From Candidatus Stahliibacteriota bacterium (GTDB lineage Bacteria; Hydrothermota; Tepidihabitantia; SM23-42), in NCBI GenBank assembly GCA_030609135.1, contig JAUWCU010000002.1:4798-68797 (forward strand): DNA of 64,000 bases, in the 5' to 3' direction. Below, one piece after another: positions 4,163-18,241 of this stretch; within the stretch, counting starts at the first letter, position 1, and each line of letters begins with the position of its first letter. The notes under the pieces were generated by a model, which was not told where the DNA came from, did not search any database, and saw only the letters and a list, made by a program, of their open reading frames with translations. Made by a program: the position numbers and the translations under genes.

Positions 4163-5261
4163 AACAATCGATTTCTTTGTTCAATCGATACATCATGCGT
4201 ATCTTGTAGGCGGATATGTACGAGATACAACGCTCGGCATAGAACCTCGTGATATCGACTTGGTGGTTGAAGGTGACGCGATAAAGGCAGCCAAGCAGCT
4301 AAATGCAAAGTTGAAAGGCAGCCTTGTTATACACAAAGAATTCGGTACTGCTTCTATTACCAAAGGACAGACAAGGATTGACCTGGCAAGCGCTCGGTTC
4401 GAGAAATATGCCTCACCTGCAAAACTACCCCATGTTTATCCATCAACTGTTAATGAGGACCTTAATCGCCGAGATTTCACGATCAATGCTATAGCTATGT
4501 CTATCTCAAATGAAAATTTTGGGGAAATTTTCGATCCCTTTAACGGTTTGGAGGATATCAAGAAAGGTGTAATTCGAGTTCTTCACAAAGAAAGTTTCAA
4601 TGATGATCCGACACGGATTTTCCGTGCCCTTAGATATAAAAATCGTTTTCGTTTCAAAATAGGCAAAAAAACAAAATCATTAATGACTGAGGCAATAAAT
4701 AAACGAATGATCCAATGTTTGAGCGGTCAGAGGACTATCAACGAAATAAGGTTAATCTTCAAGGAAAAGAACTATATAGACATTATTAAAGATCTTTCAA
4801 ATATGACATCACTGAAAATAAAGAAAAAAGACCTGGAACTATTGCCGGTTTTGGGACAAAACCGCATGTATTTTTATTTATCCACGGTCAAATCCTCCAA
4901 GTTTCCAATTACAAAAACAGAGAAACTCTTAGTCAAGGATTTTTATAACTTTAGCAAAACAATCGCACGTTTGGACAAAGCAACCAAGCACAGTACAATC
5001 TTTGCAATTCTCTTGCCTATTTCAATTGATGTCATCGATATTATACCTGTTGTGCTGCCTAAACTAAAACAAAAGGTCAGGACATTTAGACAGCTCAAGA
5101 AGAGAAAACTTCTGGTAACAGGCAGTGATTTGAAAAGACTTGGTTACAAACCCGGGAGGAGATTCAAAACTCTCCTGAATAAGATGCGCGATTGGCAATT
5201 CGACAAAAAAATAAAAAACAGAAAAGAAGCCCTTGAGTATTTGAAAAACATAAAACACTAA
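4098..5261 (+). CDS. cca: tRNA nucleotidyltransferase (CCA-adding enzyme) / poly(A) polymerase family
   Basis: GGYVRDTTLGIEPRDIDLVV ... RRDFTINAIA ... DPTRIFRALRY are head-domain motifs of class II CCA/PcnB enzymes. The start overlaps the upstream ORF by 65 nt; alternative TTG starts exist at 4110 and 4128. Confidence 0.8.
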   Translation: MRTNLAKLKSLVNQQQKSVLSKTIDFFVQSIHHAYLVGGYVRDTTLGIEPRDIDLVVEGDAIKAAKQLNAKLKGSLVIHKEFGTASITKGQTRIDLASARFEKYASPAKLPHVYPSTVNEDLNRRDFTINAIAMSISNENFGEIFDPFNGLEDIKKGVIRVLHKESFNDDPTRIFRALRYKNRFRFKIGKKTKSLMTEAINKRMIQCLSGQRTINEIRLIFKEKNYIDIIKDLSNMTSLKIKKKDLELLPVLGQNRMYFYLSTVKSSKFPITKTEKLLVKDFYNFSKTIARLDKATKHSTIFAILLPISIDVIDIIPVVLPKLKQKVRTFRQLKKRKLLVTGSDLKRLGYKPGRRFKTLLNKMRDWQFDKKIKNRKEALEYLKNIKH

Positions 5262-5893
5262 TGGGAAGTATTGTTTCCTTTTTGCTCTCTCTGCCGCCGA
5301 TTTTGTTCGCCTTAACCATCCACGAATACTCTCATGGGTATATGGCACTCCGTATGGGTGACCCGACCGCGAAGTTTGCTGGTCGGCTTACCCTTAACCC
5401 AATAAAACATATTGACATTATGGGTTTGTTCGCATTTATCATCTTCAGGTTTGGTTGGGCAAAACCCGTACCGATCAACCCTGGTAATTTCAGAGATTTA
5501 AAAAAGGGCATTCTCTACACTTCCTTAGCGGGTCCTCTCTCCAATTTCCTCATCGCAATCCCTTTTGGTCTAATAGCCAGGGGCATTCCGGTCCAGGTGG
5601 ATTTTCTTTTGCCCTTACGGATACTGCTTGAATTATTTGTGTTCTACAACCTCATATTCTGTGCTTTCAATCTTATTCCAATTCCACCCCTTGATGGCTC
5701 ACACGTTCTCTTTGCTTTGCTCCCACCCCAATATCGGCACATTGAACTATGGTTAACACGCTACGGTTTTTTTGTCCTAATCGGACTCATCATGTTTGAT
5801 AGGATCACTGGCATACCAGTTCTTTGGGGTTGGATTGGACCATTCGTGACTTTTTTCAGTACCCTCTTTGCTGGCAACTTAATAATCTTATGA
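5261..5893 (+). CDS. Peptidase M50 (site-2 protease family) membrane metalloprotease
   Basis: HEYSHG (HExxH) within a transmembrane segment and a downstream LDGSH motif; TAATG overlap with cca. Confidence 0.8.
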   Translation: MGSIVSFLLSLPPILFALTIHEYSHGYMALRMGDPTAKFAGRLTLNPIKHIDIMGLFAFIIFRFGWAKPVPINPGNFRDLKKGILYTSLAGPLSNFLIAIPFGLIARGIPVQVDFLLPLRILLELFVFYNLIFCAFNLIPIPPLDGSHVLFALLPPQYRHIELWLTRYGFFVLIGLIMFDRITGIPVLWGWIGPFVTFFSTLFAGNLIIL

Positions 5894-5899
5894 GGAGTA

Positions 5900-8176
5900 A
5901 TGAACAGATTCCTTAAAATCTTACTTGTAATCATAGGTGCAATCATCGTCATCCTGATTGTTGGCTATTTTCTGATAAAGAGTTACCTGACACCCAAAAC
6001 AGTACAAAATATTGCTGAAAAGGTTGCAACTGAGGCTATCCAATATCCAGTTGAGATCGGTCAAGTTGGTTTGCGTTTTGGATTCAAGGTGGGTATTACA
6101 ATAGACGATGTCAAAATACCCAATGCCAAAGGTTTTAGCCGTGAATCTATGGTCGAAATTGACCGAACCACCCTAAATTTAAAACTTCTGCCTTTATTGG
6201 GACGCCGGATAGTCATAAGTGGTCTGGATTTCTCAGGGATAAAGGTCAAAGTTGAAAGAAATAAACAGAACAAACTGAACTTCGCAGCTATCATACCCAA
6301 AGAAGCACAGGGCTCGAGTTGGTCACTATCTCTGTCTTCAGTCACTATTTCCCAAGGTAATGTATCCTATATTGATGCGTTGACCAAAACTGAAATAGAG
6401 GTTAAGGATATCGATCAAGAAATTAAGTTTCAAGGCAGCACGATATCTGCAACTGGTAAGAGCACGGTATACATCCTGAAAAACAAAACACTGCCAGAAA
6501 TAATAGTGAAAGTTGGCAATAACGTTGTGTACGATACCTTGGAAAAGGATTTCCAAATTAAGAAGCTTACAGCGTTGTACGACCCAGTACATCTTTTGAT
6601 TGATGGGACAATAAGCAACTTAGAGAAACTCGATATCGATGCCAAACTTAAAGTTGACGATATGTCAAAACTTACTACATTAATCCCTGCTAATTCACGT
6701 CCAGAAAAGCTTAGCGGCGTGCTTATCACAACATGTTCAGTAACCGGTAAAACTAAAAAGATTGTTGTTGCCGGGAACAGTAAACTCAAAAACGTATCTT
6801 TTACGCCAAAAGGATTGAACCGGGGATTTACAAAAATCCACGGTTCTTTATCATTTACGAGTAAAGCGATTAGAGATATATCACTACATGCGATGTTCGG
6901 AGATACGAAGCTGGAACTCAACGGAGCAGTAAGCAACCTTAACAACCCGATGTTGAACCTCAAAACCAAAGCAGTAGGAGATCTCCAAGATTTAGAGATG
7001 CTCACAACCGACATGAAAGATGTACAATTGAAAGGTCCACTTACCCTCAATATAACGATTAAAGGTAGCGCTGAAAAACCGTCATACCAAGGAAATTATA
7101 ATATAAGCAGCGGATTTATAAATGGCATCGGTTTAGCGAAACCGATAAGCAATTTTATTCTCAAAGGTACAATAGAAAATAGTGTTGCCAAAATAAATAG
7201 ATGTGGTGGCAGCATTGGGCGTTCTGATTTTTCATTGACCGGTAAGGTAACCAACTTTAAAAAACCAGTAATTGAAATCAACAATACCTCACATCTTATT
7301 GATCTTGACGAAATTCTACCAAAGCCAGAAAATCGCAAGCAACAACAAGGAAAGACAGCACCTATCACACTCCGTGGTAAGACCAAAATAAACAAGTTTA
7401 TCGGCGCAAACATGGAGTTCAGAAACATAAACACAAGTTTCTCCTATGAAAATGAAGTAATAGATTTGAGAAAATGTACGGCAGATGCTTTTGATGGCAA
7501 AGTGCAGTTTGATCTTTATTATAATGCAAATAGCCCTGAACCCTATCGTATCAACACGAAAATGACTTCGGTGTCGACCAAAAAAATTCTAAAACGCTTC
7601 TTGAATTTTGAGAATCTGGAAGGCAAACTAACTGGCGTCAGTAACTTCCAAGGCCGCGGTTTCAGTAAAAATGATGTTATCGCCAATCTCAGTGCCTCGG
7701 GTAATATCAAGTTAATTAACGGTGTATTCAGAAATTTCGATTTCATTACGAAACTCCTTGCTTGGCTCGGTATAAAAGACTACAAGATACTGAATTTCAA
7801 CAATTTGGTGGCCAATTTCAATATCGATAAGGGTAATACAAAAGTGAAAGACTGGGCCCTATCATCAAAAGTCGGTACTTTTCTTACAAATGGTTTCATA
7901 GGATTAAATGGAAACGTGAATTTGAACGTAACCACTACGCTCAAGAAGGAATACTCAGATATTGTGAAAAAGTACCACGGCGATTGGATATTCCCGATTG
8001 ATAATAAAGGACAGGCAACAATCGATATTAAGATCACCGGAAAACTCAACTCACCTAAATTCAGTCTTGATAAGGATAAAATTAAGCAACGCATCAAAGG
8101 TAAGTTGAAGAATGAATTCAATAAGAAAAAGAAAGAATGGGAAAAGAAACTGAAAGAATTACTGAAAGGGAAATGA
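5900..8176 (+). CDS. AsmA-family outer-membrane biogenesis protein
   Basis: 758 aa with an N-terminal TM anchor, a long beta-rich repetitive body and a lysine-rich C-terminus; AsmA/DUF748-like architecture. Confidence 0.65.
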   Translation: MNRFLKILLVIIGAIIVILIVGYFLIKSYLTPKTVQNIAEKVATEAIQYPVEIGQVGLRFGFKVGITIDDVKIPNAKGFSRESMVEIDRTTLNLKLLPLLGRRIVISGLDFSGIKVKVERNKQNKLNFAAIIPKEAQGSSWSLSLSSVTISQGNVSYIDALTKTEIEVKDIDQEIKFQGSTISATGKSTVYILKNKTLPEIIVKVGNNVVYDTLEKDFQIKKLTALYDPVHLLIDGTISNLEKLDIDAKLKVDDMSKLTTLIPANSRPEKLSGVLITTCSVTGKTKKIVVAGNSKLKNVSFTPKGLNRGFTKIHGSLSFTSKAIRDISLHAMFGDTKLELNGAVSNLNNPMLNLKTKAVGDLQDLEMLTTDMKDVQLKGPLTLNITIKGSAEKPSYQGNYNISSGFINGIGLAKPISNFILKGTIENSVAKINRCGGSIGRSDFSLTGKVTNFKKPVIEINNTSHLIDLDEILPKPENRKQQQGKTAPITLRGKTKINKFIGANMEFRNINTSFSYENEVIDLRKCTADAFDGKVQFDLYYNANSPEPYRINTKMTSVSTKKILKRFLNFENLEGKLTGVSNFQGRGFSKNDVIANLSASGNIKLINGVFRNFDFITKLLAWLGIKDYKILNFNNLVANFNIDKGNTKVKDWALSSKVGTFLTNGFIGLNGNVNLNVTTTLKKEYSDIVKKYHGDWIFPIDNKGQATIDIKITGKLNSPKFSLDKDKIKQRIKGKLKNEFNKKKKEWEKKLKELLKGK

Positions 8177-8185
8177 TAAGAAAAG

Positions 8186-8375
8186 GCAGGATCACTTCGT
8201 TCGCAGGATCATCCGCCTTTAGGCGGGATTCGCAGAAAACGCCATTTTTTAGCAAGCAGAGTGATATTGCAAGTTCCGCCATGTAAGGATGGCGAAACGA
8301 TACTGCAAGCCAAGACCATGGTCTTGGTGATACTGCGAGTTCCGCCCCTTTGAAAAAGGGCGGGACGATACTGCG
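8186..8375. repeat. Palindromic repeat array (GATACTGCRAGTTCCGCC-hairpin-GGCGGRACGATACTGC units plus CAGGATCAYYCG units)
   Basis: Two units, gatattgcaagttccgccatgtaaggatggcgaaacgatactgcaag and gatactgcgagttccgcccctttgaaaaagggcgggacgatactgcg, separated by the palindrome ccaagaccatggtcttgg. The same unit family occurs inverted at 32283-32476. It ends 7 nt before the mutM ATG. Confidence 0.55.
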
Positions 8376-8382
8376 TTTTATT

Positions 8383-9207
8383 ATGCCTGAACTCCCTGAA
8401 GTAGAGACTATCAAAAGAGAGTTGAAGCCCAAGATCATTAATAAAAAAATCCTGGCATGTATCGTTTTGCATAGTGATGTAATTGCATACCCAAAACCAA
8501 AGACATTTTGTAGAGCAATCATTAACGAAAGAGTGACTAATATAACGCGCAAAGCCAAATACCTACTTCTTGAGCTCACCAATGAAAAGAAAATTGTCTT
8601 CCATTTTAGGTTGTCTGGTACTATCTCATTGAGAAAACTGCACGTTAAACCTGAAGGTTTTACTAGGGTAATAATAAAGATCAACGGCTACCAGCTTTTC
8701 TTCAATGAACCAAGGGTGTTGGGTAGAATCTACCTTTTGAAAGGCAAAAAGAGATTGCCGTTTTTAAAAGGACTGTACAACCTCGGACTTGAACCGATTG
8801 CTGATGCATTCGACTTAGTCTATCTTCGCAACAAAATAAAAGGAAGAAAGGCAAAAATAAAAGCCTTGCTTCTTGACCAGAGTATCTGTGCCGGAGTCGG
8901 TAATATATATTCTGATGAAGCACTTTTCCATGCCGGAATAAGACCCTTGCGCCGTGCTAAGCGTATAACGACCAGAGAAACCGCAAAACTTGTAAGAACC
9001 CTAAAATACGTAATACAAAAAGGGATAGAGAATTACGGAACATCGGTTTCTGATTATCACCGAACCGATGGCAAAGATGGGAATTTTCAAAAACTTCTGT
9101 ATGTCTACGGCAAAGAGGATGAACCTTGTAAAGTCTGCGGGACAAAAATTGTCTTGGCGAAACTCGGCAACCGGTCCACTAGATACTGTCCTAAATGCCA
9201 GAAGTAA
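8383..9207 (+). CDS. mutM: Formamidopyrimidine-DNA glycosylase
   Basis: Starts MPELPEVE (catalytic Pro2/Glu3) and ends with the C-terminal zinc finger CKVCGTKI...RYCPKCQK. The ORF-track start at 8350 is an upstream extension running into the repeat array. Confidence 0.88.
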   Translation: MPELPEVETIKRELKPKIINKKILACIVLHSDVIAYPKPKTFCRAIINERVTNITRKAKYLLLELTNEKKIVFHFRLSGTISLRKLHVKPEGFTRVIIKINGYQLFFNEPRVLGRIYLLKGKKRLPFLKGLYNLGLEPIADAFDLVYLRNKIKGRKAKIKALLLDQSICAGVGNIYSDEALFHAGIRPLRRAKRITTRETAKLVRTLKYVIQKGIENYGTSVSDYHRTDGKDGNFQKLLYVYGKEDEPCKVCGTKIVLAKLGNRSTRYCPKCQK

Positions 9208-9210
9208 ATA

Positions 9211-9248
9211 CAAATTCCTAAATACCTAAAATCCAAAATGCCTAAAAT
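9211..9248. repeat. Mosaic repeat module (AAATACCTAAAATCCAAAATGCCTAAA)
   Basis: Reverse complement of the module present at 35895-35925 and 55215-55245. Confidence 0.45.
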
Positions 9249-9341
9249 TGTAGTCGCCCGATTTATCGGGCAATGTCTGATAAATCCCGCAATCCTATTT
9301 GTAGAATTATAATACGAAGCGGGATAAATCAGACAACTACA
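9249..9341. mobile_element. MITE-like hairpin repeat, copy 2 (full length)
   Basis: TGTAGTCGCCCGATTTATCGGGC at the left end and GTCTGATAAATCAGACAACTACA at the right end (about 23-bp imperfect terminal inverted repeats). Internal long inverted repeat GTCTGATAAATCCCGC...GCGGGATAAATCAGAC with a TATAAT-containing loop. Confidence 0.6.
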
Positions 9342-9381
9342 GTGCTATACTCTCTATTAAGTAACGGTGTATTGGAGTATG
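9342..9381. repeat. 40-nt direct repeat (copy a) flanking the MITE copies
   Basis: gtgctatactctctattaagtaacggtgtattggagtatg is repeated exactly at 9711-9750. Confidence 0.6.
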
Positions 9382-9584
9382 GGAGTAATCGTGTAAAACA
9401 GTTATTGAGTTATAAAAAACGTATCGTTCGTTTAATTCGTTATTATCGTTTAGATCGTTTCGTCCATTGTCTTCTGTTAAGATGGTTTTTTTACGAATAC
9501 GATATTCTTTGTTTCTTCGTTGATCTGGTTTTCTTGTTTCTTACTTCTCACTTCTCACTTCTTGCCTCTTATCTCGGTAGCTAC

Positions 9585-9632
9585 GGAGTGCAGTAGCTTG
9601 CTACTGCATGCAACGGCAAGCCGTTGCACTCC
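9585..9632. repeat. Nested palindrome / potential structured element
   Basis: Outer stem GGAGTGCA/TGCACTCC encloses two hairpins, CAGTAGC-TTG-GCTACTG and GCAACGGC-AA-GCCGTTGC, joined by CATGC. Confidence 0.4.
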
Positions 9633-9662
9633 ATCTACTCTCTACGCCCTACGTTCTTTATC

Positions 9663-9710
9663 GTAGTCGCCCGATTTATCGGGCAATGTCTGATAAATCA
9701 GACAACTACA
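9663..9710. mobile_element. MITE-like repeat, copy 3 (internally deleted short form)
   Basis: GTAGTCGCCCGATTTATCGGGCAATGTCTGATAAATCAGACAACTACA: same terminal inverted repeats as copy 2 with the central hairpin reduced to GTCTGATAAATCAGAC. Confidence 0.55.
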
Positions 9711-9920
9711 GTGCTATACTCTCTATTAAGTAACGGTGTATTGGAGTATGCGAGTATCAGAGGATATCGTATTCGTAAATCGTCCCGCAAAGCGGGATCC
9801 TCGATTTACCGATCATTATATGCATCAATATGAAAAATCGGGATGCATCGTACTTGTAATTTTGGATTAAAACGAATACGATTTACGAAATACGAGTACG
9901 ATTATCATCTCTGCTGTTTA

Positions 9921-9948
9921 TTGACAGCAAAAGAAAATTGACTATAGT
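9921..9948 (+). promoter_or_regulatory. sigma70-type promoter TTGACA-16-TATAGT, 7 nt upstream of the valS ATG (leaderless)
   Basis: TTGACAgcaaaagaaaattgacTATAGTtatgctaATGgatgag. Confidence 0.5.
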
Positions 9949-9955
9949 TATGCTA

Positions 9956-12589
9956 ATGGATGAGTTTCCAAACAAATATGACTCTCAGGGCATTGAAGAT
10001 CAATGGTATGAGTTCTGGCTGAACGCGAATCTTTTCACGCCTGATCCACATTCCAAAAAACCACCCTATACAATTATGATACCACTACCCAATATTACGG
10101 GTCGACTCACTCTGGGGCATACCCTGAATAACTCTATCCAGGATATCCTCATCAGATATAATAAACTGACCGGGCATGAAACCTTATGGATGGTCGGCAT
10201 GGACCATGCCGGGATCGCCACCCAAGTGGTTGTTGAGGAAAAACTACTGAAACAAGGCATTAAGAAGGAAGACTTGGGTCGGGAAAAATTCCTCCAAATT
10301 GTTTGGAAATGGAAAGAAGAATACGCCACAACAATTCGAAAACAACTGAAAAAAATGGGTTTTGCCCTTGACTGGTCGCGTGAGCAATTCACGTTATCTG
10401 AAGACTATTCAAAGAAAGTAATTAAAATATTCGTTGATTTGTACAAGAAAGGACTTATCTACCAGGGTGAATACATCATTAACTGGTGTCCGCGTTGTCT
10501 ATCTGCTTTATCCGATGAACAAGTCGAGACTGAAGAAGAACCTGGTAAGCTATTTTATATCAGGTATCCGATAATCGGTACCGAGAATTTCATCACTGTA
10601 GCAACAACCAGACCTGAAACTATGCTCGGCGATACCGGAATCTGCGTTAATCCAAAGGACCGCCGTTACAAGAAACTCATTGGGGGTACTGCCTTATTAC
10701 CGATCATGAAGCGTGCCATCCCCATTATCTGTGATGATTATGTTGATCCGGATTTCGGCACGGGTGCGTTAAAGATCACACCAGCGCATGATCCTTTTGA
10801 CTTTGATTTGGCTAAAAAACACAACCTTGAGTTTATCAATATCATGAACCCTGATGCGACACTCAATGAAAATGCCAAAGAATACAATACATTAGACCGT
10901 TATGAAGCACGCGCCAAAATCATCGTTGCTTTGGAAAAAGAGAATCTGCTTGAAAAAGTCGAAAAATATAAGGTACCCCTTGCTAAATGTCAACGCTGTC
11001 ATACCGCGATTGAACCAAGAATTAGCAAACAATGGTTCGTTCGCATGAAACCCTTGGCTAAACCCGCCTTAGAGGTAGTAAAGAATGAGACTGTGAAGCT
11101 GTATCCAAAAAGGTGGGTAAACCTCTATAATCACTGGATGGAGAACGTTCGAGATTGGTGTATTTCCAGGCAACTCTGGTGGGGACACAGGATACCGGTG
11201 TACTACTGTTCAAAATGCCATGACGCAGAAAGCACAGAAGTCAACAAAACACGACTGAATGTAGAGATAAAGAATCCAAAAGGTATGTTTGTCTCAACGA
11301 AAATGCCTAAGAAGTGTCCAGACTGCGGTTCTTGTGATATTTATCAGGACGAGGATGTTCTCGATACCTGGTTCAGTTCCTGGATCTGGCCCTTTGCAAC
11401 GCTTGGTTGGCCAAGTAAAACAAAAGATTTCAAGCGTTTCTATCCAACTCAAACTCTGGTAACAGCTTGGGATATTATTTACCTTTGGGTTGCCCGCATG
11501 ATCATGGCGGGTTTAGAATTCACTGGGCAAATACCTTTTTCCAGTGTTGTATTCCACCCCATGGTCAGGGATAAAAAGCGTAGAAAGATGTCGAAAAGTC
11601 TGGGTAATTCTCCAGATCCAATGGATTTGATCGCCAAATATGGAGCTGACGCATTGCGTTACGGGTTACAACTTATTACACCGAAGGAACAGGATGTTCT
11701 GTACTCTGAGAAAACAATCGATGTAGGTCGGAAGTTCTGTAATAAGTTGTGGAATGCAGCCCGATTAGTCTGGATGAATCACAAGAACGACAATGAAACA
11801 GCACCATCAAAACCCTCAATATATGATGCTTGGATCATTTCAGAATTCAATCAATTCATTAAGAATACTAACAACCATTTTTCAAACTTTGAACTAAATG
11901 CCATTGCTCGGGACATATACGATTTTGTCTGGCATACGTTCTGCGATTGGTATCTTGAGATTATTAAAATCTGCCCGTCAAAAGATACCCCGAAATACCT
12001 GTTAAAACAAATCATAATTATGCTCCATCCCTACATACCTTTTATCACTGAAGAAATATATCACAAATTCAATTTCGCAAAAAAGAGCATACTTCTCGAG
12101 GATTGGCCAAAGACAACAATTGTGAAAACTGATATCGTAAATGTCCAAATCACGAAACGTTTGATTGAGGAAATCCGAAATATCCGTGGTCTCTTCAATA
12201 TTAATCCAAAAGAGAAACTTCAAGCAATAATAAACACGAGAAAAGATTTCAAGGATTTTATCGAAAGAAACATCGCGGTCTTGCAGGGGCTTACCGCTCT
12301 TGAAATAATAGAATATGACAAAACCCCGGGTCAATCCGTGGCAAGTATTATTATGCCAGATGTCGAATGCTATGTCGTACTTGCCGGTATTGATATAGCA
12401 AAAGAGAAAAAACGTCTGACAAAAGAAATAACCGCACTCTCAAAGAGAATCGATGAAATTAAATATCGTTTGAATAACCCAAACTACATACGTAAAGCAA
12501 CTGTTGATGTCAAGCAACGCGAGCGAGAACGCCTCGAATGTTTTTTGAAGAAAAAAGAAGGAATTGTTAGAGCAATAGAAAAACTATGA
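9956..12589 (+). CDS. valS: Valine--tRNA ligase
   Basis: Class I aaRS motifs (PNITGRLTLGHTLN HIGH-like region; KMSKSLGN), a ValS-type editing/CP1 region and a C-terminal coiled coil. MDEFPNKYDSQGIEDQWYEFW matches the canonical ValS N-terminus. The ORF-track start (TTG 9938) lies inside the -10 box, so the ATG at 9956 is preferred; the same stop applies either way. Confidence 0.9.
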   Translation: MDEFPNKYDSQGIEDQWYEFWLNANLFTPDPHSKKPPYTIMIPLPNITGRLTLGHTLNNSIQDILIRYNKLTGHETLWMVGMDHAGIATQVVVEEKLLKQGIKKEDLGREKFLQIVWKWKEEYATTIRKQLKKMGFALDWSREQFTLSEDYSKKVIKIFVDLYKKGLIYQGEYIINWCPRCLSALSDEQVETEEEPGKLFYIRYPIIGTENFITVATTRPETMLGDTGICVNPKDRRYKKLIGGTALLPIMKRAIPIICDDYVDPDFGTGALKITPAHDPFDFDLAKKHNLEFINIMNPDATLNENAKEYNTLDRYEARAKIIVALEKENLLEKVEKYKVPLAKCQRCHTAIEPRISKQWFVRMKPLAKPALEVVKNETVKLYPKRWVNLYNHWMENVRDWCISRQLWWGHRIPVYYCSKCHDAESTEVNKTRLNVEIKNPKGMFVSTKMPKKCPDCGSCDIYQDEDVLDTWFSSWIWPFATLGWPSKTKDFKRFYPTQTLVTAWDIIYLWVARMIMAGLEFTGQIPFSSVVFHPMVRDKKRRKMSKSLGNSPDPMDLIAKYGADALRYGLQLITPKEQDVLYSEKTIDVGRKFCNKLWNAARLVWMNHKNDNETAPSKPSIYDAWIISEFNQFIKNTNNHFSNFELNAIARDIYDFVWHTFCDWYLEIIKICPSKDTPKYLLKQIIIMLHPYIPFITEEIYHKFNFAKKSILLEDWPKTTIVKTDIVNVQITKRLIEEIRNIRGLFNINPKEKLQAIINTRKDFKDFIERNIAVLQGLTALEIIEYDKTPGQSVASIIMPDVECYVVLAGIDIAKEKKRLTKEITALSKRIDEIKYRLNNPNYIRKATVDVKQRERERLECFLKKKEGIVRAIEKL

Positions 12590-12996
12590 AATATATTGGA
12601 TGGATCGTAAGCCTTATTCTATTAGCTGGAGTGTTTGCCGCATATAAAACTCAATACGTGCCAATAAAAAGGGATATTGATAAGCTTGAAAAAGAAATCG
12701 CAATGTGGGAAGATGTCCTCAAGAACGAAAAAGGGTTGATCGGCGACCGTAACCGCTTTCCCCTGGATCGATTTTTCAAGAACAACAAGCTCACCCCTTA
12801 TGGTGAAGTCGAGATCCTTCGTAAATTCAGTATGGAGTATAAGAACCTCGAATTATACGTATCAGCACCACGAGCTTTGGATCGAGCTGCCGATATAATG
12901 CGTTTCCTTGACGAGCAACGAATTGAATACAGGATTCTGCGCTGTATCGTGGTAATCGATTCGGTCGAGCGCTTTGAATACAAGTTTTCCAAATAA
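12586..12996 (+). CDS. Hypothetical membrane-anchored coiled-coil protein (FtsB/DivIC-like architecture)
   Basis: 136 aa with an N-terminal TM helix and a predicted coiled coil; ATGA overlap with the valS stop suggests translational coupling. Confidence 0.5.
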   Translation: MKYIGWIVSLILLAGVFAAYKTQYVPIKRDIDKLEKEIAMWEDVLKNEKGLIGDRNRFPLDRFFKNNKLTPYGEVEILRKFSMEYKNLELYVSAPRALDRAADIMRFLDEQRIEYRILRCIVVIDSVERFEYKFSK

Positions 12997-13372
12997 CGTG
13001 AAATCCGCACCGTTTAAAATTTGGAGATTGGTCATATTCTTACTAATCGGCAGTATTGCTTTGGCTAATGGTTTCAAGAAAAAGGATGCCAGTTTGGCGA
13101 TGCTGCTCTGTGTCTTCCCGGGTGGTGGACAGTACTACACCGAAAGATATGTGCCCGGTATTGTTATCAGCGCAAGTGAATTGGCGATCGGCTATTATGC
13201 TTACAAATACCATAAAGAAGAGGAGTATGAGAAAAGGAATTCCATGCTTTGGTGGGGTCTTTTTATCTTTGGATACTCGCTCGCTGATGCCTATGTGGGC
13301 GCGAAAATGTACGGTTTTGATATTGAGGCGGACATAGATAAGGTATCACTAAGTTACACATTCAAATGGTAA
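12974..13372 (+). CDS. Hypothetical membrane protein
   Basis: 132-aa ORF with two hydrophobic segments; TTG start at 12974. An in-frame GTG at 12998, immediately after the upstream stop, is an equally plausible start. Confidence 0.45.
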   Translation: MNTSFPNNVKSAPFKIWRLVIFLLIGSIALANGFKKKDASLAMLLCVFPGGGQYYTERYVPGIVISASELAIGYYAYKYHKEEEYEKRNSMLWWGLFIFGYSLADAYVGAKMYGFDIEADIDKVSLSYTFKW

Positions 13373-13654
13373 TTGCCAACGGCAATAATCAAGGAATGAT
13401 AACCGCGATTCCAAAATCTTAGACTATTATTCTGTAACATAAATTCTTGAAAACACCATATTGTCATTGCCCGATCCCCTGATCCCTTCGACATATAACT
13501 CAGGACTACAGCAAGTCAGAGGACAAGCTTGATCCTCCGGTCAAGCCGGAGGACGCAATCCATAGTAAGCAACTTTCTGGATTCCCGCTAGAGTTTACCC
13601 CGTACTTGATACGGGGCGGGAATGACAGCTATCGGAAATTAATGTTACACTGCA

Positions 13655-13927
13655 CTAGTGATTTGGGCTATTCTTGACCTGTTTTATGGCTTTAAGTAGC
13701 TCAACCATGACTTGTGTATGGAGCTGGTTTTTGGTGAGATGGTACATGGTCATTATGTGTCCTACGTCGCTCGATACATACATCGGTGGCAGATTGTTTA
13801 AGGTTAAAGTCATGATGTCACGGTAGCAGACATCACATTTACATAAATCCTTATCATCCTCATACCTTCTGTTCAATTCTTTTCGGACTATTTTTTCAAT
13901 ATAGTTTTCATAGCTCGATTGCTTCAT
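13655..13927 (-). CDS. ComFB-like late competence development family protein
   Basis: 90-aa protein MKQSSYENYIEKIVRKEL...DLCKCDVCYRDIMTLTLNNLPPMYV matches the ComFB family (the four-Cys CxC/CxxxxC region and LN.LPP.Y). Confidence 0.55.
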   Translation of the reverse strand: MKQSSYENYIEKIVRKELNRRYEDDKDLCKCDVCYRDIMTLTLNNLPPMYVSSDVGHIMTMYHLTKNQLHTQVMVELLKAIKQVKNSPNH

Positions 13928-13929
13928 AT

Positions 13930-15939
13930 TTATCTACCTTTTCCTATCAAATCAAGGAATTTCTGCTCAGACAAAATCTTAACACCAAAACTCTTTGCCC
14001 GATCAAATTTAGAACCGGGTTTTGTACCGCAAACAAGATAGTCGGTTTTTTTAGAGATAGTCGATCCTGGATGACCGCCATATTTACGAACCATTGCTTG
14101 AGCCTTTCTTCTTGCTATTGATCTAAGTTTTCCAGTGAAAACAAATGTCTTGCCTCGTAAAAACAGGATCTCCTTTTGTTTTTGATCTAATGCAAAATGC
14201 AAACCTATTTTCTTAAGCGCCTCTATTAATTTGAGGTTATGTTTATTCCTAAAGTAATTTATTATACTTTGCGCAATAACATTCCCAATTCCATCTATTT
14301 TTTCATATTCTTCAATTTTTGCATTAATAATTGTATCAATGCAGCCAAATTCATTGGCTAAAATGTTAGCACAGTTGACGCCAATATTCGGGATGCCCAG
14401 ACCGTATAATACTTTCATGAAATTCCGGTCCTTACTCTGTTCAATGGAACGCACAAGATTCTTTGCCGACTTTTCAGCCATTCTCTCCAGATTTACAAGA
14501 ACACCTTTTTTAAGGCGATATATTTCGTCGAAACTCCGAACTAAACCCCTGTCAACAAGCTGGCCTGTCAGGGTTATCCCGAGTCCTTTAATGTCCATTG
14601 CCGGACGGGAAGCAAAGTGCAAAATAGCACCTTTGATTTGTGCTGGACATGATCTATTAACACAACGCCAGTCTGCCTCATCTGGTAGCCTGACTATTTT
14701 CTCCTTGCAAACCGGACAGATTCCAGGGAATCTAAAAACCTTTTCTCTTCTCCGGCGTCGATCGATTACAACGGACACTACTTTTGGAATAACCTCTCCC
14801 CCTTTTTCAATTACCACAAAATCCTTGATCCTAATATCCTTTCTCTTAATTTCGTCTTCATTATGCAGGGTGGCGCGGGAAATAGTTGAACCTGATAACA
14901 AGACTGGTTCCAAGAGACCAACTGGAGTTATCCGACCAGTCCTGCCTACTTGGAGCGTTATATCATTGAGTTTAGTTATTACCTGACGTGCAGGATATTT
15001 GTACGCAATTGCCCAGCGTGGACTTTTTATAGTAGTACCCAATACCTCGCGCTGCTTATAATTATCGACTTTTATCACCAACCCATCCACTTCGTAGCCC
15101 AAGGTTTCTCTTTTATTCTGCCATTCGCTAATACAATCAAGGACTTGCTCAATGGACGTACATAATCTCATATGAGGGATAATTTTGAAACCGCTATTAC
15201 CAAATGCTTTGAGGGTTTTGTAGTGAGAGCTATACAGTCTGCCAGGCGAACGCGGTACAGTATGAATAAAAATATCAAGGCCACGTTTGGCGACCTTTTG
15301 CGCAGCAAGCAGTTTCAGTGTTCCGGCAGCTGCATTGCGCGGATTTGCAAATGATGGTACATCTGATTTCTCCCGTTCTTTGTTGAGTTTTGTAAATGAT
15401 GATATCGGCAAAAATACCTCACCCCTCACTTCGATATTCTTCAAAGCAGAATCTTCAGTCATAATACGTAATGGTACTGACCTAATCGTCCTCAGGTTTA
15501 ACGTGATATCATCACCGTAAACACCATCGCCCCGGGTCGAGCCAAGTACCAATTTACCATTTTCATAAATGAGCGCAACAGCAACCCCATCCACTTTGAG
15601 CGTAACCTCATAGTTAACACCACTTTCAAGTACCTTTTTGACTCGTCGGTCAAATTCCTTGACTTCATCTTCTGAATAAGTGTTGTCTAGACTCAACATT
15701 CTTGTTTCATGTTCGACAGTTTTGAACTCTTTAAGTGGCTCGCCACCTATTCGCTGGGTCGGTGAATCTGGTGTGATGAGTTGAGGAAAACATTCTTCCA
15801 CTGACTGGAGCCTTTTGTACAACTTATCATATTCATAATCAGTTATCAGGGGACGGTTCAGTACATAATAGTGATAGTTGTGTGTATCGATTTGTTTTGT
15901 TAGCCGTGCAATCTCTTTTTTCGCCTGCGCTACGGTCAT
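13930..15939 (-). CDS. ligA: NAD-dependent DNA ligase
   Basis: KVDG adenylation motif (KVDGVAVALIY), OB fold, zinc finger (CPVCKEKIVRLPDEADWRCVNRSCPAQ), HhH and BRCT regions. The start is placed at the second ATG (MTVAQAKKEI...): the ORF-track ATG at 15963 lies inside the spacer of the promoter (-35 at 15968-15973, -10 at 15946-15951), and the shorter N-terminus matches LigA homologues. Confidence 0.9.
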   Translation of the reverse strand: MTVAQAKKEIARLTKQIDTHNYHYYVLNRPLITDYEYDKLYKRLQSVEECFPQLITPDSPTQRIGGEPLKEFKTVEHETRMLSLDNTYSEDEVKEFDRRVKKVLESGVNYEVTLKVDGVAVALIYENGKLVLGSTRGDGVYGDDITLNLRTIRSVPLRIMTEDSALKNIEVRGEVFLPISSFTKLNKEREKSDVPSFANPRNAAAGTLKLLAAQKVAKRGLDIFIHTVPRSPGRLYSSHYKTLKAFGNSGFKIIPHMRLCTSIEQVLDCISEWQNKRETLGYEVDGLVIKVDNYKQREVLGTTIKSPRWAIAYKYPARQVITKLNDITLQVGRTGRITPVGLLEPVLLSGSTISRATLHNEDEIKRKDIRIKDFVVIEKGGEVIPKVVSVVIDRRRRREKVFRFPGICPVCKEKIVRLPDEADWRCVNRSCPAQIKGAILHFASRPAMDIKGLGITLTGQLVDRGLVRSFDEIYRLKKGVLVNLERMAEKSAKNLVRSIEQSKDRNFMKVLYGLGIPNIGVNCANILANEFGCIDTIINAKIEEYEKIDGIGNVIAQSIINYFRNKHNLKLIEALKKIGLHFALDQKQKEILFLRGKTFVFTGKLRSIARRKAQAMVRKYGGHPGSTISKKTDYLVCGTKPGSKFDRAKSFGVKILSEQKFLDLIGKGR

Positions 15940-15945
15940 CAGCAA

Positions 15946-15973
15946 ATTATATATATATAACATCTTGAGTCAA
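15946..15973 (-). promoter_or_regulatory. sigma70-type promoter TTGACT-16-TATAAT, 6 nt before the ligA ATG at 15939 (leaderless)
   Basis: Minus-strand reading TTGACTcaagatgttatatataTATAATttgctgATGacc. Confidence 0.5.
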
Positions 15974-15997
15974 TAAGAACCCCTAACCTGTTGAATA

Positions 15998-16025
15998 TTG
16001 ACATTTACGTAGTTTTATATAGAAT
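15998..16025 (+). promoter_or_regulatory. sigma70-type promoter TTGACA-16-TAGAAT, 5 nt before the nadB ATG (leaderless); divergent from the ligA promoter
   Basis: TTGACAtttacgtagttttataTAGAATttagtATGctg. Confidence 0.5.
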
Positions 16026-16030
16026 TTAGT

Positions 16031-17566
16031 ATGCTGAAAAAGGTGGATTTCCTTATTGTAGGATCAGGGATAGCCGGCTTGACATTTGCCATCAACTCTG
16101 CACAATATGGTCAAATACTCATTCTGACTAAAAAGAACAGAGCTGATTCGAATACCAACTATGCACAAGGGGGTATCGCATCAGTTTTTAGCGATGCGGA
16201 TTCATTTGATTGCCATATCAATGATACAATCAAAGCTGGTGAAGGGTTGAGCCACCAAGATGCTGTGAAAATAATGGTCGAGAATGGTCCAAAGCTAGTA
16301 AGGAAACTGTATGATAAGGGTTGTCGTTTTACGCTCGATGACCAGGACAATTTCGCCCTCGGTAAAGAAGGTGGTCATTCCCAACGCCGTATTGTACATG
16401 CCAAGGACTATACTGGTTATGAGATCGAACATATCCTCTTGGAGGAAGTCAAGAGAAAAAACGTTATAATAAGTGAAAATGAAATTGCACTTGATTTAAT
16501 AATAATCGACGGCGAATGTTTGGGACTCTACTTTTTTGACGCTAACAAACAAAAAATTGACTACATCTTAGCCAATGCTACAGTACTCGCGACCGGCGGC
16601 ACAGGACAAATATATCTTCACACCACAAATCCACCGATTGCCACAGGCGATGGTATTGCCATGGCTTTTCATGCTGGTGCGAGAGTGGCAAATATGGAGT
16701 TTGTACAATTCCACCCTACATCAGTCTACAACATACAAATCGATGGTCGGGCTTTTCTGATATCAGAGGCGTTACGCGGCGAGGGCGGCATATTGAAAAC
16801 AAAGAATGGTAAACCATTCATGGATAAATACGACCCGGCTGGGAACCTTGCTCCCCGGGATATCGTAGCACGAGCTTGTGTTTCTGAAATGTATGCAACG
16901 AAGTCAAAATATGTACTGCTTGATATTTCGCATGTCAATGCTGGCTATCTGAAGAATAGATTTCCGACGATCTATGAAACATGCATGAAATGGGGTATTG
17001 ATATGACTCGTGAACCAATACCAGTAGTACCAGCTGCCCATTATACATGTGGCGGGATTTTGGTTAACACCTGGGGTGAATCGTCCATCAACCGGTTATT
17101 CGCCCTGGGCGAATGCAGTTGTACTGGGGTACACGGCGCAAATAGGCTCGCGTCCAATTCCTTACTTGAAGCCCTGGTTTTTTCAACTAGAGCATCGGAA
17201 AGAGCGAAAAAGATAAAATCTATTAGAACAAAAACAAGGATACCCGTGAAACAAGCCGCGCAGACCGGACCAGATTATAGATTGCAGATTAAAGAAATCA
17301 TGGATCAATACGTTGGTGTCATACGAACTGTAAAGGGATTGGAAAAGGCACACGAATCCATCAGTGACTTCTGCAGCAAGTATGATGATGGCATACACCT
17401 AAAAAACGCCGAAGCTCGAAATGTCGCCGATATTGCAATGCTCATAGTCAAATCCGCCATCATGCGTACTGAATCCCGTGGTCTCCACTATATCAGGGAA
17501 TACCCTAAGAAAAAGAAAAAATTCATGAAGGATACGGTTATTGAGAAGAAGGATATCGGAAGATGA
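16031..17566 (+). CDS. nadB: L-aspartate oxidase
   Basis: FAD-binding dinucleotide motif DFLIVGSGIAGL, an NadB/fumarate-reductase flavoprotein-family core (HYTCGG, RLASNSL) and an NadB-length C-terminal domain. Confidence 0.9.
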   Translation: MLKKVDFLIVGSGIAGLTFAINSAQYGQILILTKKNRADSNTNYAQGGIASVFSDADSFDCHINDTIKAGEGLSHQDAVKIMVENGPKLVRKLYDKGCRFTLDDQDNFALGKEGGHSQRRIVHAKDYTGYEIEHILLEEVKRKNVIISENEIALDLIIIDGECLGLYFFDANKQKIDYILANATVLATGGTGQIYLHTTNPPIATGDGIAMAFHAGARVANMEFVQFHPTSVYNIQIDGRAFLISEALRGEGGILKTKNGKPFMDKYDPAGNLAPRDIVARACVSEMYATKSKYVLLDISHVNAGYLKNRFPTIYETCMKWGIDMTREPIPVVPAAHYTCGGILVNTWGESSINRLFALGECSCTGVHGANRLASNSLLEALVFSTRASERAKKIKSIRTKTRIPVKQAAQTGPDYRLQIKEIMDQYVGVIRTVKGLEKAHESISDFCSKYDDGIHLKNAEARNVADIAMLIVKSAIMRTESRGLHYIREYPKKKKKFMKDTVIEKKDIGR

Positions 17567-17778
17567 ATTTCAAATGACAAATTACAAATAAATCCAAATG
17601 TCAAATGACCAACATAAAAAGAAAGAATTCTTGAAGAATACGGTTATTAGTAGGTCGATGTTTTGGGTAAGGATACAGGAAATCATTAATAGATTAATAA
17701 GCGTATTGCGAATGTCTGGACATTTTCACTTAATTCGCTGTCATTCGCATTTATTCGTTTTTTAAAAAGGGAAGGAGA

Positions 17779-18232: not shown

Positions 18233-18241
18233 TCACATAGT

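What the first reader, a model, noticed from the sequence alone, without database searches (positions are those of the whole stretch)
9921..9958. Recurrent near-consensus TTGACA-16-TATAAT promoters placed 5-9 nt before start codons: leaderless mRNAs and corrected starts for valS and ligA
At least eight genes show a textbook -35/-10 pair with the start codon 5-9 nt after the -10 and no Shine-Dalgarno:
- valS (TATAGT then 7 nt to ATG 9956)
- ligA (TATAAT then 6 nt to ATG 15939)
- nadB (TAGAAT then 5 nt)
- ispD (TATTAT then 5 nt)
- the J-domain gene (18242)
- the 62914 ORF (TATAAT then 8 nt)
- the second pilB/gspE copy (62796)
- tRNA-Gly, with -10 to the mature 5' end about 8 nt.
Other genes in the same window (3875, 1577, 25840, pilC, pilT) carry strong GGAGG-type Shine-Dalgarno sequences, so both initiation modes coexist. 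For valS and ligA the longest-ORF starts (TTG 9938, ATG 15963) fall inside the promoter itself and cannot be translated from it. The shorter products also match family N-termini.
Basis: partly seen in the sequence, partly recalled or inferred. Interest (0 to 1): 0.6.

Follow-up and report, generated by a model that had tools for sequence, protein, structure and literature searches.

The report
Leaderless-mRNA promoters in a WOR-3 bacterium
In this uncultured WOR-3/Stahlbacteria genome, many genes, including the essential valS and ligA, have a near-perfect promoter so close to the start codon that the mRNA should begin at the AUG with no ribosome-binding leader; this mechanism is known from other bacteria, and I found no report of it for this phylum.

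Summary
The window (Candidatus Stahlbacteria/WOR-3; ValS 95% identical to a named MAG) has 19 sites matching TTGACA-N16-TAnnnT, against 3.0±1.9 in shuffles. Seven sit 5-8 nt before an ATG that opens a long ORF (about 0.005-0.03 expected): valS, ligA, nadB, ispD, sucC, an aminotransferase and ORF 62914. The J-domain gene and pilB2 sit 10-11 nt away, implying a 3-5 nt leader without SD.

Comparative evidence:
- Across WOR-3 relatives with 53-95% ValS identity, the flanks diverge.
- The hexamers, the 16-nt spacer and the distance to the start stay fixed: 6 nt for valS in 11/11 relatives, 5-6 nt for ligA and nadB.
- The start codon itself switches between ATG and GTG.
- None of 37 valS loci from other phyla has this arrangement.

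The short ValS and LigA N-termini match solved structures. Public calls already use ValS 877 aa, but LigA on this contig is over-called at 677 aa.

Leaderless transcription is therefore well supported, but no transcription start site was mapped. This is the known "group C" architecture in a new lineage. The 16-nt spacer preference is the more unusual feature.

The parts
9921..9958 (+). valS leaderless promoter: -35 TTGACA 9921-9926, 16-nt spacer, -10 TATAGT 9943-9948, 7 nt, ATG 9956
   Evidence: All 11 WOR-3 relatives keep the geometry, with a 6-nt gap. Start is ATG, or GTG in L007 and L011. The public gene call is 877 aa. Residue 9 of the 883-aa form aligns with residue 2 of T. thermophilus ValRS 1gax.
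15937..15973 (-). ligA leaderless promoter: -35 TTGACT 15973-15968, -10 TATAAT 15951-15946, 6 nt, ATG 15939. The longer-ORF ATG 15963 lies in the spacer.
   Evidence: Ten genomes keep TTGACT-16-TATAAT with a 5-6 nt gap to ATG or GTG. Residue 9 of the 677-aa form aligns with residue 1 of T. filiformis LigA 1dgs.
15998..16033 (+). nadB leaderless promoter: TTGACA-16-TAGAAT, 5 nt, ATG 16031. It lies back to back with the ligA promoter, with 24 bp between the two -35 hexamers.
   Evidence: Nine genomes keep it, with a gap of 5-6 nt.
18203..18244 (+). J-domain/TPR gene promoter: TTGACA-16-TATATT, 11 nt, ATG 18242. Predicted leader of about 3-5 nt with no SD.
   Evidence: Conserved in L001, L003 and L005 (gap 11) and L004 (gap 10). 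Absent in L008 and L009.
26072..26107 (+). ispD leaderless promoter: TTGACA-16-TATTAT, 5 nt, ATG 26105
   Evidence: No relatives were examined for this site.
39077..39115 (-). sucC (succinyl-CoA ligase beta) leaderless promoter: TTGCAA-16-TATAAT, 8 nt, ATG 39079.
51578..51613 (-). Class I/II aminotransferase leaderless promoter: TTGACT-16-TATACT, 5 nt, ATG 51580.
   Evidence: Orthologues in L082 and L088 have a gap of 5, L083 a gap of 8 and L097 a gap of 9.
62794..62834 (-). pilB2 (T2SSE ATPase) promoter: TTGACA-16-TATATT, 10 nt, ATG 62796. The stretch after the -10 is AT-rich, so the -10 register is ambiguous. No SD.
   Evidence: About 20 orthologous loci keep TTGACA and an SD-less gap of 5-11 nt in nearly all (14 nt in L090).
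62878..62916 (+). ORF 62914 (130 aa, signal-peptide-like N-terminus) leaderless promoter: TTGACA-16-TATAAT (12/12 match), 8 nt, ATG
   Evidence: Orthologues have gaps of 8, 8, 8, 7 and 6 (GTG in L085).
494..601 (-). tRNA-Gly(UCC) with TTGACT-16-TATAAT ending 8 nt before the mature 5' end
   Evidence: Gap is 8-10 nt in four relatives. tRNA-Ala in L003 has the same layout with a 10-nt gap.
967..1002 (+). Possible leaderless promoter with a 15-nt spacer (TTGACT-15-TATAAT, 6 nt, ATG 1000) before an MNT-like nucleotidyltransferase fragment
   Evidence: No orthologue was found in the related loci.
1531..1579 (+). Contrast class: TTGACA-16-TAAACT, then 18 nt containing GAGGAGG, then ATG 1577 (predicted 5' UTR of about 12 nt)
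3829..3877 (+). Contrast class: TTGACT-16-TATAAT, then 18 nt containing AAGGAGA, then ATG 3875 (DUF3467 gene)
   Evidence: Promoter, SD and spacing are conserved in seven relatives.
45399..45444 (-). Contrast class: TTGACA-16-TATTAT, then 15 nt containing AGGAGG, then ATG 45401
31538..31587 (-). Contrast class: TTGATT-16-TATAAT, then 19 nt containing AAGGGGG, then GTG 31540
25838..25901 (-). Contrast class: TTGACA-16-TATGAT, then 33 nt containing AAGGAGG, then ATG 25840

Best explanation
These are housekeeping sigma-70-type promoters (consensus TTGAC[A/T]-N16-TATAAT) placed so that RNA polymerase starts transcription at, or within a nucleotide or two of, the A or G of the start codon.

Proposed mechanism:
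- The mRNAs of valS, ligA, nadB, ispD, sucC, the aminotransferase and ORF 62914 would begin with 5'-pppAUG and have no 5' UTR and no Shine-Dalgarno sequence.
- They would be translated by the leaderless route, in which a ribosome with initiator tRNA binds the 5'-terminal start codon directly.
- The J-domain gene and pilB2 would carry leaders of only about 3-5 nt, which are functionally equivalent.
- Downstream genes in the operons, and a second class of transcription units, use GGAGG-type SD sequences. The SD-led first genes have very short predicted leaders (about 9-13 nt).

What is shown: the motifs, their excess over chance, their exact register with start codons, their conservation across the WOR-3 phylum, and the agreement of the short N-termini with homologues.

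What is inferred: the transcription start position (from the usual 6-9 nt distance between the -10 and the start site) and the mode of translation.
For: Excess over chance:
- 19 promoter-like sites against 3.0±1.9 in shuffles.
- 7 sites in leaderless register against no more than 0.03 expected.

Conservation at single loci:
- valS, ligA and nadB keep the -35, the 16-nt spacer, the -10 and a 5-6 nt gap in 9-11 WOR-3 genomes with 53-95% ValS identity.
- The upstream flank and the spacer sequence are not conserved, and ATG alternates with GTG.
- The in-frame upstream ATG and TTG codons of the window are not conserved.

Second set of loci: the aminotransferase, ORF 62914 and pilB2 behave the same way in metagenome orthologues, while pilC and pilT keep AAGGAGGT.

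Pooled WOR-3 sequence, 552 kb: the -10-to-start gap is bimodal.
- 61 distinct sites have a gap of 5-8 nt, none with an SD.
- 13 sites have a gap of 15-20 nt with an SD, peaking at 18 nt (8 sites).

Controls and N-termini:
- 0 of 37 valS loci from other phyla have a promoter in this register.
- Solved ValRS and LigA structures start within 1-2 residues of the short forms.
- The geometry matches what GeneMarkS-2 describes for 'group C' genomes, with a Pribnow box 6-8 nt from the gene start (PMC6028130).
Against: - No transcription start site, 5'-end or proteomic data are available for this organism. The search for transcript-like contigs returned only ordinary metagenomic contigs.
- Gaps of 5 nt (nadB, ispD, aminotransferase) are at the short end of normal start-site selection.
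- Gaps of 8-11 nt imply that a few nucleotides of leader remain.
- Not every gene without an SD fits. fpg, whose start is fixed by the catalytic Pro2, has neither an SD nor a promoter in register. About 20 of 50 ORFs fall in no class.
- The related loci are orthologous, so the pooled counts are not independent events.
Confidence: 0.85

Rival explanations
1. The hexamer pairs are chance matches in AT-rich intergenic DNA (window GC is about 40%) and have no relation to the start codons.
For: AT-rich sequence produces many TAnnnT matches. The generic scan of 1..20000 found 68 loose promoter-like sites against 55.4±6.9 expected.
Against: - At the stringent definition there are 19 sites against 3.0±1.9, and 7 in register against no more than 0.03 expected.
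- Only spacer 16 stands clearly above background; spacer 19 gave 10 sites, not examined.
- Hexamers and spacing are conserved across genomes whose flanks do not align.
Confidence: 0.01
2. The promoters are real, but the true start codons lie further downstream. The apparent first codons would then be a 5' UTR, possibly with an internal ribosome-binding site.
For: Internal in-frame GTG or ATG codons exist in some genes, for example GTG 17 nt after the nadB -10.
Against: - Amino-acid conservation begins at the proposed start (M-D/N/K-E/D-F-P...KYD in ValS; MxxK-V-DFL in NadB), with synonymous variation.
- The nadB GTG is GTT in relatives.
- No SD precedes any downstream candidate.
- Solved homologues start within 1-2 residues of the proposed N-termini.
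Confidence: 0.03
3. The genes are mainly transcribed from unrecognised upstream promoters as leadered, SD-less mRNAs. They would be translated by an S1-dependent, A/U-rich-enhancer or coupling mechanism, and the TATAAT-like box would act as an unstructured AU-rich element rather than a -10.
For: Leadered genes without an SD clearly exist here, such as fpg, the permease at 2370 and the CNNM gene at 21346. So an SD-independent, leadered initiation route probably operates in this organism.
Against: - An AU-rich enhancer does not explain an invariant TTGACA exactly 16 nt upstream, or a fixed 5-6 nt distance to the start.
- The ligA-nadB and pilB2-ORF62914 intergenic regions (91 and 117 bp) are fully taken up by the two divergent promoters, leaving no room for another upstream promoter.
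Confidence: 0.06
4. The arrangement gives very short leaders (1-5 nt) rather than strictly leaderless transcripts at most of these genes.
For: - Gaps of 7-11 nt (valS in the window, sucC, ORF 62914, J-domain gene, pilB2) put the usual start position 1-5 nt before the ATG.
- tRNA genes show the same 8-10 nt distance.
Against: - The dominant gaps across WOR-3 are 5 and 6 nt (45 of 106 sites), which put the start exactly on the A or G of the start codon.
- By common convention, leaders of 5 nt or fewer are classed as leaderless. This statement is from general knowledge and was not checked here.
Confidence: 0.2

Closest known systems
Leaderless genes of 'group C' bacteria in the GeneMarkS-2 sense (Actinobacteria, Deinococcus-Thermus; for example Mycobacterium tuberculosis and Deinococcus deserti)
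   Same: - A Pribnow-type -10 box lies 6-8 nt before the start codon of the first gene in an operon.
- There is no SD at those genes.
- Internal and other genes use an SD, so a dual start model applies.
- About 25-50% of transcription units are leaderless (PMC6028130). In the window, roughly 10 of about 25 units fit (rough manual count).
- GTG as well as ATG occurs as the start of predicted leaderless genes (ligA and valS orthologues).
   Different: - The lineage is the candidate phylum WOR-3/Stahliibacteriota. No paper in the library combines 'leaderless' with 'WOR-3'.
- The genome is low-GC (about 40%).
- The -35 is as well conserved as the -10: TTGAC in 27-29 of 29 promoters.
- The spacer is almost always 16 nt rather than 17 nt.
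Thermotoga maritima 'Short 5'UTR' transcription units (PMC3636130)
   Same: - Both hexamers are near consensus.
- Intergenic regions are very short.
- One class of SD-led units has a leader barely long enough to hold the SD: 11-17 nt in T. maritima, and a predicted 9-13 nt here for 1577, 3875, 45401 and 31540.
   Different: - In T. maritima no leaderless transcripts were detected and the spacer distribution centres on 17 bp.
- Here leaderless units outnumber the short-leader class and the spacer is 16 nt.
Canonical E. coli sigma-70 promoter (TTGACA-17-TATAAT)
   Same: The hexamer consensus is identical, and a purine lies at the predicted +1.
   Different: - The spacer mode is 16 nt.
- A survey of 49 species with mapped start sites reports 17 bp as predominant across species (PMC12641261).
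- A T four nucleotides upstream of the -10 is frequent (23 of 29), and there is no TG extended -10.

Membership tests
Bacterial leaderless protein-coding genes (GeneMarkS-2 group C architecture) | A sigma-70-type -10 box (TAnnnT) ends about 5-8 nt upstream of the start codon of the first gene in a transcription unit | tested here: met
   Seven genes in the window have gaps of 5-8 nt. 61 distinct sites do so in 552 kb of WOR-3 sequence.
Bacterial leaderless protein-coding genes (GeneMarkS-2 group C architecture) | No Shine-Dalgarno sequence between the promoter and the start codon, while other genes in the genome use an SD | tested here: met
   No SD motif is present at any site with a gap of 3-14 nt. 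16 SD-only genes and 4 promoter-plus-SD genes are found in the window.
Bacterial leaderless protein-coding genes (GeneMarkS-2 group C architecture) | The codon next to the promoter is the true translation start | tested here: met
   Protein conservation starts at that codon. Upstream in-frame starts are not conserved. Alignment to solved ValRS and LigA agrees. Most public gene calls are 877 and 669 aa.
Bacterial leaderless protein-coding genes (GeneMarkS-2 group C architecture) | The primary transcript 5' end maps at the start codon (5' UTR of 0-5 nt) | not testable with these tools
   No 5'-end data are available. Contigs carrying the gene are ordinary metagenomic assemblies.
Bacterial leaderless protein-coding genes (GeneMarkS-2 group C architecture) | The mRNA is translated without a leader (ribosome binding at the 5'-terminal AUG or GUG) | not testable with these tools
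   This needs reporter assays, toeprinting or ribosome profiling.
Housekeeping sigma-70 promoters | -35 TTGACA and -10 TATAAT hexamers | tested here: met
   Frequency matrix of 29 promoters: TTGAC in 27-29 of 29, sixth base A or T; -10 T1, A2 and T6 in 29 of 29.
Housekeeping sigma-70 promoters | Optimal spacer of 17 bp | tested here: not met
   Spacer 16 dominates: 12 sites against 3 for spacer 17 in the window, and 48 against 2 in L001-L012. Loci from other phyla give 12 against 16. Sixteen is inside the accepted 15-19 bp range but is not the usual mode.
T. maritima-type minimal SD leaders | 5' UTR of 11-17 nt carrying only the SD | tested here: inconclusive
   A -10-to-ATG gap of 15-19 nt with an SD is found at four window promoters and is conserved for the DUF3467 gene. 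The UTR length is inferred, not measured.

The most novel reading that the evidence does not exclude
The WOR-3/Stahliibacteriota transcription machinery may have a shifted promoter geometry, with a spacer optimum of 16 bp rather than 17 bp and start sites 6-7 nt after the -10. The whole phylum may run a 'minimal 5' end' expression architecture:
- most recognisable housekeeping promoters abut start codons, producing leaderless AUG- or GUG-initiated mRNAs even for essential genes;
- the rest carry leaders just long enough for an SD;
- tRNA genes are transcribed with only about 0-4 nt of 5' leader.

Such an architecture would leave almost no room for regulation through the 5' UTR or through operators.
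Probability: 0.5. Interest if true: 0.55.

Novelty: new member of a known kind. Interest (0 to 1): 0.4.

Why it matters
Annotation:
- Gene callers that assume an SD or the longest ORF mis-place starts in this phylum. LigA on this contig is on record as 677 aa, with 8 residues encoded by the promoter itself.
- WOR-3 MAGs should be annotated with a dual leaderless/SD start model.

Biology:
- Leaderless initiation would extend to a phylum outside the Actinobacteria and Deinococcus-Thermus.
- Essential genes (valS, ligA) would have no 5' UTR to regulate them.
- The lineage would have an unusually information-rich promoter with a 16-bp spacer, which is convenient for predicting transcription units in uncultured genomes and for studying spacer-length preference of RNA polymerase.

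A cultured WOR-3 strain now exists (PMC12285271), so all of this can be tested.

Tried and rejected
- **Transcript-derived contigs.** I looked for contigs that might begin at the start codon, using ValS cluster representative P0002. Only normal metagenomic contigs were returned.
- **Rfam scan of the window.** Only the tRNA was found. No riboswitch, T-box or leader RNA lies upstream of valS or any other gene.
- **fpg as an independent test case.** Its start is fixed by the catalytic Pro2. It has neither a promoter in register nor an SD, so not every SD-less gene is leaderless.
- **Repeat or mobile-element explanation.** Rejected, because the spacer and flank sequences of the 15 window promoters are unrelated.
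- **Alternative 18-nt-spacer readings for the J-domain gene and pilB2.** Rejected for the J-domain gene, because only the spacer-16 TATATT is conserved. Left open for pilB2, where the AT-rich run makes the register ambiguous and a few relatives fit spacer 17 with a gap of 5.
- **Literature.** I found no prior description of leaderless genes or promoter structure in WOR-3. The library is incomplete.
Full report
**Source of the window**

The window is about 40% GC. A ValS-based scan of one genome per species found its closest relatives among Candidatus Stahlbacteria and candidate division WOR-3 MAGs. L001 has 95% ValS identity, L002-L005 have 74-91%, and L006-L012 have 53-68%, including three complete WOR-3 chromosomes. 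The exact ValS sequence is on record from a single NCBI contig of 81,818 bp. Gene order around valS is conserved across these genomes. That allowed phylogenetic footprinting of several promoters at once.

**Check of the observation**

Reading the sequence confirms the stated anatomy.
- valS: TTGACA (9921-9926), 16 nt, TATAGT (9943-9948), 7 nt, ATG 9956.
- ligA (- strand): TTGACT (15973-15968), 16 nt, TATAAT (15951-15946), 6 nt, ATG 15939.
- nadB: TTGACA-16-TAGAAT, 5 nt, ATG 16031.
- ispD: TTGACA-16-TATTAT, 5 nt, ATG 26105.
- ORF 62914: a perfect TTGACA-16-TATAAT, 8 nt, ATG.
- tRNA-Gly: TTGACT-16-TATAAT, 8 nt, mature 5' end at 565.

The longest-ORF starts TTG 9938 and ATG 15963 lie inside the 16-nt spacers.
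- sucC (TTGCAA-16-TATAAT, 8 nt, ATG 39079);
- a class I/II aminotransferase (TTGACT-16-TATACT, 5 nt, ATG 51580);
- a spacer-15 candidate before ATG 1000.

Two distances need correcting. For the J-domain gene the conserved hexamer is TATATT at spacer 16, which is 11 nt from the ATG. For pilB2 the spacer-16 reading gives 10 nt.

**Is it more than chance?**

I used a stringent definition: TTG fixed, TAnnnT, at most 2 mismatches to the 12 consensus positions, spacer 16.
- The window has 19 sites, against 3.0±1.9 (maximum 11) in 200 dinucleotide-preserving shuffles.
- Spacers 14, 15, 17 and 18 give only 3-4 sites each; spacer 19 gives 10, which I did not follow up.
- Seven sites have an ATG or GTG opening an ORF of at least 100 aa exactly 5-8 nt after the -10.
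- About 0.005 such sites are expected from shuffle density, or 0.03 from the observed density (Poisson P < 1e-14).
- Fifteen of the 19 sites lie directly upstream of a gene or tRNA.
- The promoters are not copies of a repeat, because their spacers and flanks are unrelated.

**Comparative evidence**

This is the strongest line of evidence.
- **valS.** All 11 WOR-3 relatives have TTGACA, 16 nt, TA(t/a)a(g/t)T and 6 nt before the start. The upstream flank and the spacer sequence are unalignable among the distant genomes. The start is GTG in two of them. The window's in-frame upstream ATG 9950 and TTG 9938 have no counterpart.
- **ligA.** Ten genomes keep TTGACT-16-TATAAT with 5-6 nt to ATG (six) or GTG (four), although the first residues differ.
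- **nadB.** Nine genomes keep the arrangement, with a gap of 5-6 nt.
- **J-domain gene.** The promoter is kept in four Stahlbacteria (gap 10-11) but not in L008 or L009.
- **Second locus set.** These came from the metagenome collection using pilB2 as the query. The aminotransferase has gaps of 5, 5, 5, 8 and 9. ORF 62914 has gaps of 8, 8, 8, 7 and 6. pilB2 has an SD-less, AT-rich gap of 5-11 nt in nearly all of about 20 loci (14 nt in L090).
- **SD-led genes in the same alignments.** pilC and pilT keep AAGGAGGT 5-6 nt before the ATG. The DUF3467 gene keeps TTGACT-16-TATAAT and an 18-nt stretch containing AAGGAGA.
- **Negative control.** None of 37 valS loci from other phyla has a promoter in this register.

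**Pooled picture**

In 552 kb of WOR-3 sequence there are 149 distinct spacer-16 sites. For 106 of them an ORF start follows within 60 nt. The distribution of the gap from the -10 to the start is bimodal.

| Gap (nt) | Sites | With SD |
|---|---|---|
| 5 | 23 | 0 |
| 6 | 22 | 0 |
| 7 | 4 | 0 |
| 8 | 12 | 0 |
| 9-11 | 17 | 0 |
| 18 | 8 | 8 |

The second cluster spans 15-20 nt and is centred on 18 nt; 13 of its 14 sites carry an SD. These counts include orthologous sites, so they are not independent. They do show the two classes clearly.

In the window, a rule-based classification of 50 ORFs gives:
- 8 leaderless;
- 2 near-leaderless;
- 4 with a promoter plus a short SD leader;
- 16 with an SD only, mostly internal genes of operons;
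- 20 unclassified, some with uncertain starts or translational coupling.

**The two 'corrected starts'**

Solved homologues support the shorter proteins.
- Residue 9 of the 677-aa LigA aligns with residue 1 of Thermus filiformis LigA (1dgs), and residue 16 with residue 6 of E. coli LigA (2owo).
- Residue 9 of the 883-aa ValS aligns with residue 2 of T. thermophilus ValRS (1gax).

An exact-sequence look-up shows that public gene calls already use the 877-aa ValS. LigA of this contig is recorded as 677 aa, as are 2 of the other 14 cluster members; the remaining 12 are 669 aa. The ligA correction therefore addresses a real mis-call. The valS one only corrects the naive longest-ORF rule.

**Mechanism**

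The following rests on established knowledge of sigma-70 promoters and was not tested here. Transcription normally starts 6-9 nt downstream of the last base of the -10, most often at the 7th, and prefers a purine.
- Gaps of 5-6 nt therefore put +1 on the A or G of the start codon.
- Gaps of 7-8 nt give 0-2 nt of leader.
- Gaps of 10-11 nt give 3-5 nt of leader.

Such mRNAs cannot carry an SD and must use the leaderless route. The ligA-nadB intergenic region is 91 bp, with 24 bp between the two -35 hexamers. The pilB2-ORF62914 intergenic region is 117 bp, with 43 bp between them. Both are filled by two back-to-back promoters, which leaves no room for another upstream promoter. I rate this explanation at 0.85. 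The missing step is a mapped 5' end.

**Comparison with what is known**

- The layout is the 'group C' architecture of GeneMarkS-2. That paper describes a Pribnow box 6-8 nt from the start of first genes, a dual promoter/RBS start model and 25-50% leaderless operons. It reports group C as frequent in Actinobacteria and Deinococcus-Thermus (PMC6028130).
- Promoter signals next to start codons have also been used to infer leaderless genes across phyla (PMC5397173).
- No paper in the searchable library combines 'leaderless' with 'WOR-3'. None of the titles or abstracts listed for 'Stahlbacteria' concerns promoters or translation starts; I did not read those papers.
- The SD-led class resembles the 'Short 5'UTR' group of Thermotoga maritima (11-17 nt). 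In T. maritima no leaderless transcripts were detected and the spacer distribution centres on 17 bp (PMC3636130).

**What is unusual**

The spacer is the more distinctive feature.
- With TTGAC[AT] and a -10 within one mismatch of TATAAT, spacer 16 accounts for 12 of 23 pairs in the window, against 3 for spacer 17.
- In L001-L012 it accounts for 48 of 71, against 2 for spacer 17.
- In the distant WOR-3 genomes L006-L012 it accounts for 20 of 28, against 0 for spacer 17.
- The 68 loci from other phyla give 12 for spacer 16 and 16 for spacer 17.
- A recent survey of 49 species with mapped start sites reports 17 bp as predominant across species (PMC12641261).

The -35 is as strongly conserved as the -10. 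tRNA genes share the geometry, with 8-10 nt from the -10 to the mature 5' end for tRNA-Gly in five genomes and for tRNA-Ala in L003. This implies 5' leaders of only about 0-4 nt.

**Verdict**

The leaderless interpretation is well supported computationally but not experimentally. It is a new lineage-level instance of a known mechanism. It has practical value for annotating WOR-3 genomes, and the 16-bp spacer preference is a modestly novel side result. Interest is 0.4.

Noticed in passing
window-wide; L001-L012; L081-L104: The promoter spacer is almost always 16 nt in WOR-3 genomes: 12 sites against 3 for spacer 17 in the window, and 48 against 2 in L001-L012. Loci from other phyla show spacer 16 about as often as 17. 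A T four nucleotides upstream of the -10 is present in 23 of 29 promoters, and there is no TG extended -10.
   Followed up: yes
window 54559-54587 (- strand), inside truA: A perfect TTGACA-17-TATAAT lies in frame within the truA coding sequence (codons L-T ... I-I-I). The same hexamers, down to codon choice, are kept in L082 and L083 although the residues between them differ. It may be an internal promoter for the downstream genes, about 210 nt before ATG 54340.
   Followed up: partly
window 494-601 (-); L001 1665-1774; L003 1108-1218 and 3401-3509: tRNA-Gly and tRNA-Ala genes have the -10 only 8-10 nt before the mature 5' end. The primary transcripts would carry about 0-4 nt of 5' leader. No CCA is encoded after tRNA-Gly.
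   Followed up: partly
window 13930-15963 (-): The public gene call for LigA on this contig is the 677-aa form, whose first 8 codons are the promoter spacer and -10. Two of the other 14 cluster members have the same over-extension and 12 are 669 aa.
   Followed up: yes
window 8263-8375 and 32336-32382: A short repeat, GATACTGC(A/G)AG, alternates with small GC-rich hairpins in two intergenic regions: 8 matches at one mismatch or fewer, against 1.3 expected. It creates spurious ORF starts at 8350 and 32360. A similar element lies before fpg in L004.
   Followed up: partly
window 9865-9905; 420-490 (- strand, after tRNA-Gly); 55110-55175: Intergenic DNA contains stuttering 5-7 nt motifs: ATACGA-like before valS, ATGGCT-like after tRNA-Gly, and AATGAC-like before truA. 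Relatives show other such motifs at the same places.
   Followed up: no
window 8383-9207 (+): fpg starts at ATG 8383 (M-PELPEV; Pfam aligns from residue 12 of the longer ORF). It has neither an SD nor a promoter in register, here or in most Stahlbacteria relatives. L006 has an AGGAG and L008 an AGGA just before the start. This points to a third, leadered SD-less class.
   Followed up: partly
window 9208-9955: The fpg-valS intergenic region is 748 nt here and holds a 107-aa ORF (9273-9596) with no Pfam match. In relative L161 the same interval is 149 nt with no ORF. The ORF is probably spurious or part of an insertion.
   Followed up: partly
window 1000-1430 (+): An MNT-like nucleotidyltransferase appears split into a 74-aa piece (Pfam Polbeta/NTP_transf_2) and a following 66-aa ORF. 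No orthologue was found in the related loci. It is preceded by TTGACT-15-TATAAT, 6 nt, ATG.
   Followed up: no
window 2239-2370; L001 2563-2610: The xanthine/uracil permease ORF (2370-3593, 407 aa) has no SD or promoter. In L001 the orthologue opens 26 codons earlier, behind TTGACA-16-TAAACT plus GAGGAGG. This suggests a 5' truncation or rearrangement in the window.
   Followed up: no
L004, L006, L007, L008, L011, L012, L085, L088: Predicted leaderless orthologues of ligA, valS, ORF 62914 and truA start with GTG instead of ATG at the same distance from the -10. GUG-initiated leaderless mRNAs therefore appear to be tolerated in this lineage.
   Followed up: partly
L083, L085, L088, L095, L096, L098 (truA orthologues): truA itself has a leaderless-type promoter (TTGATT or TTGCAT, 16 nt, TATAAT or TATACT, 5-8 nt to the start) in most of these relatives; L085 shows only the -10. 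No such promoter is recognisable before truA in the window.
   Followed up: partly
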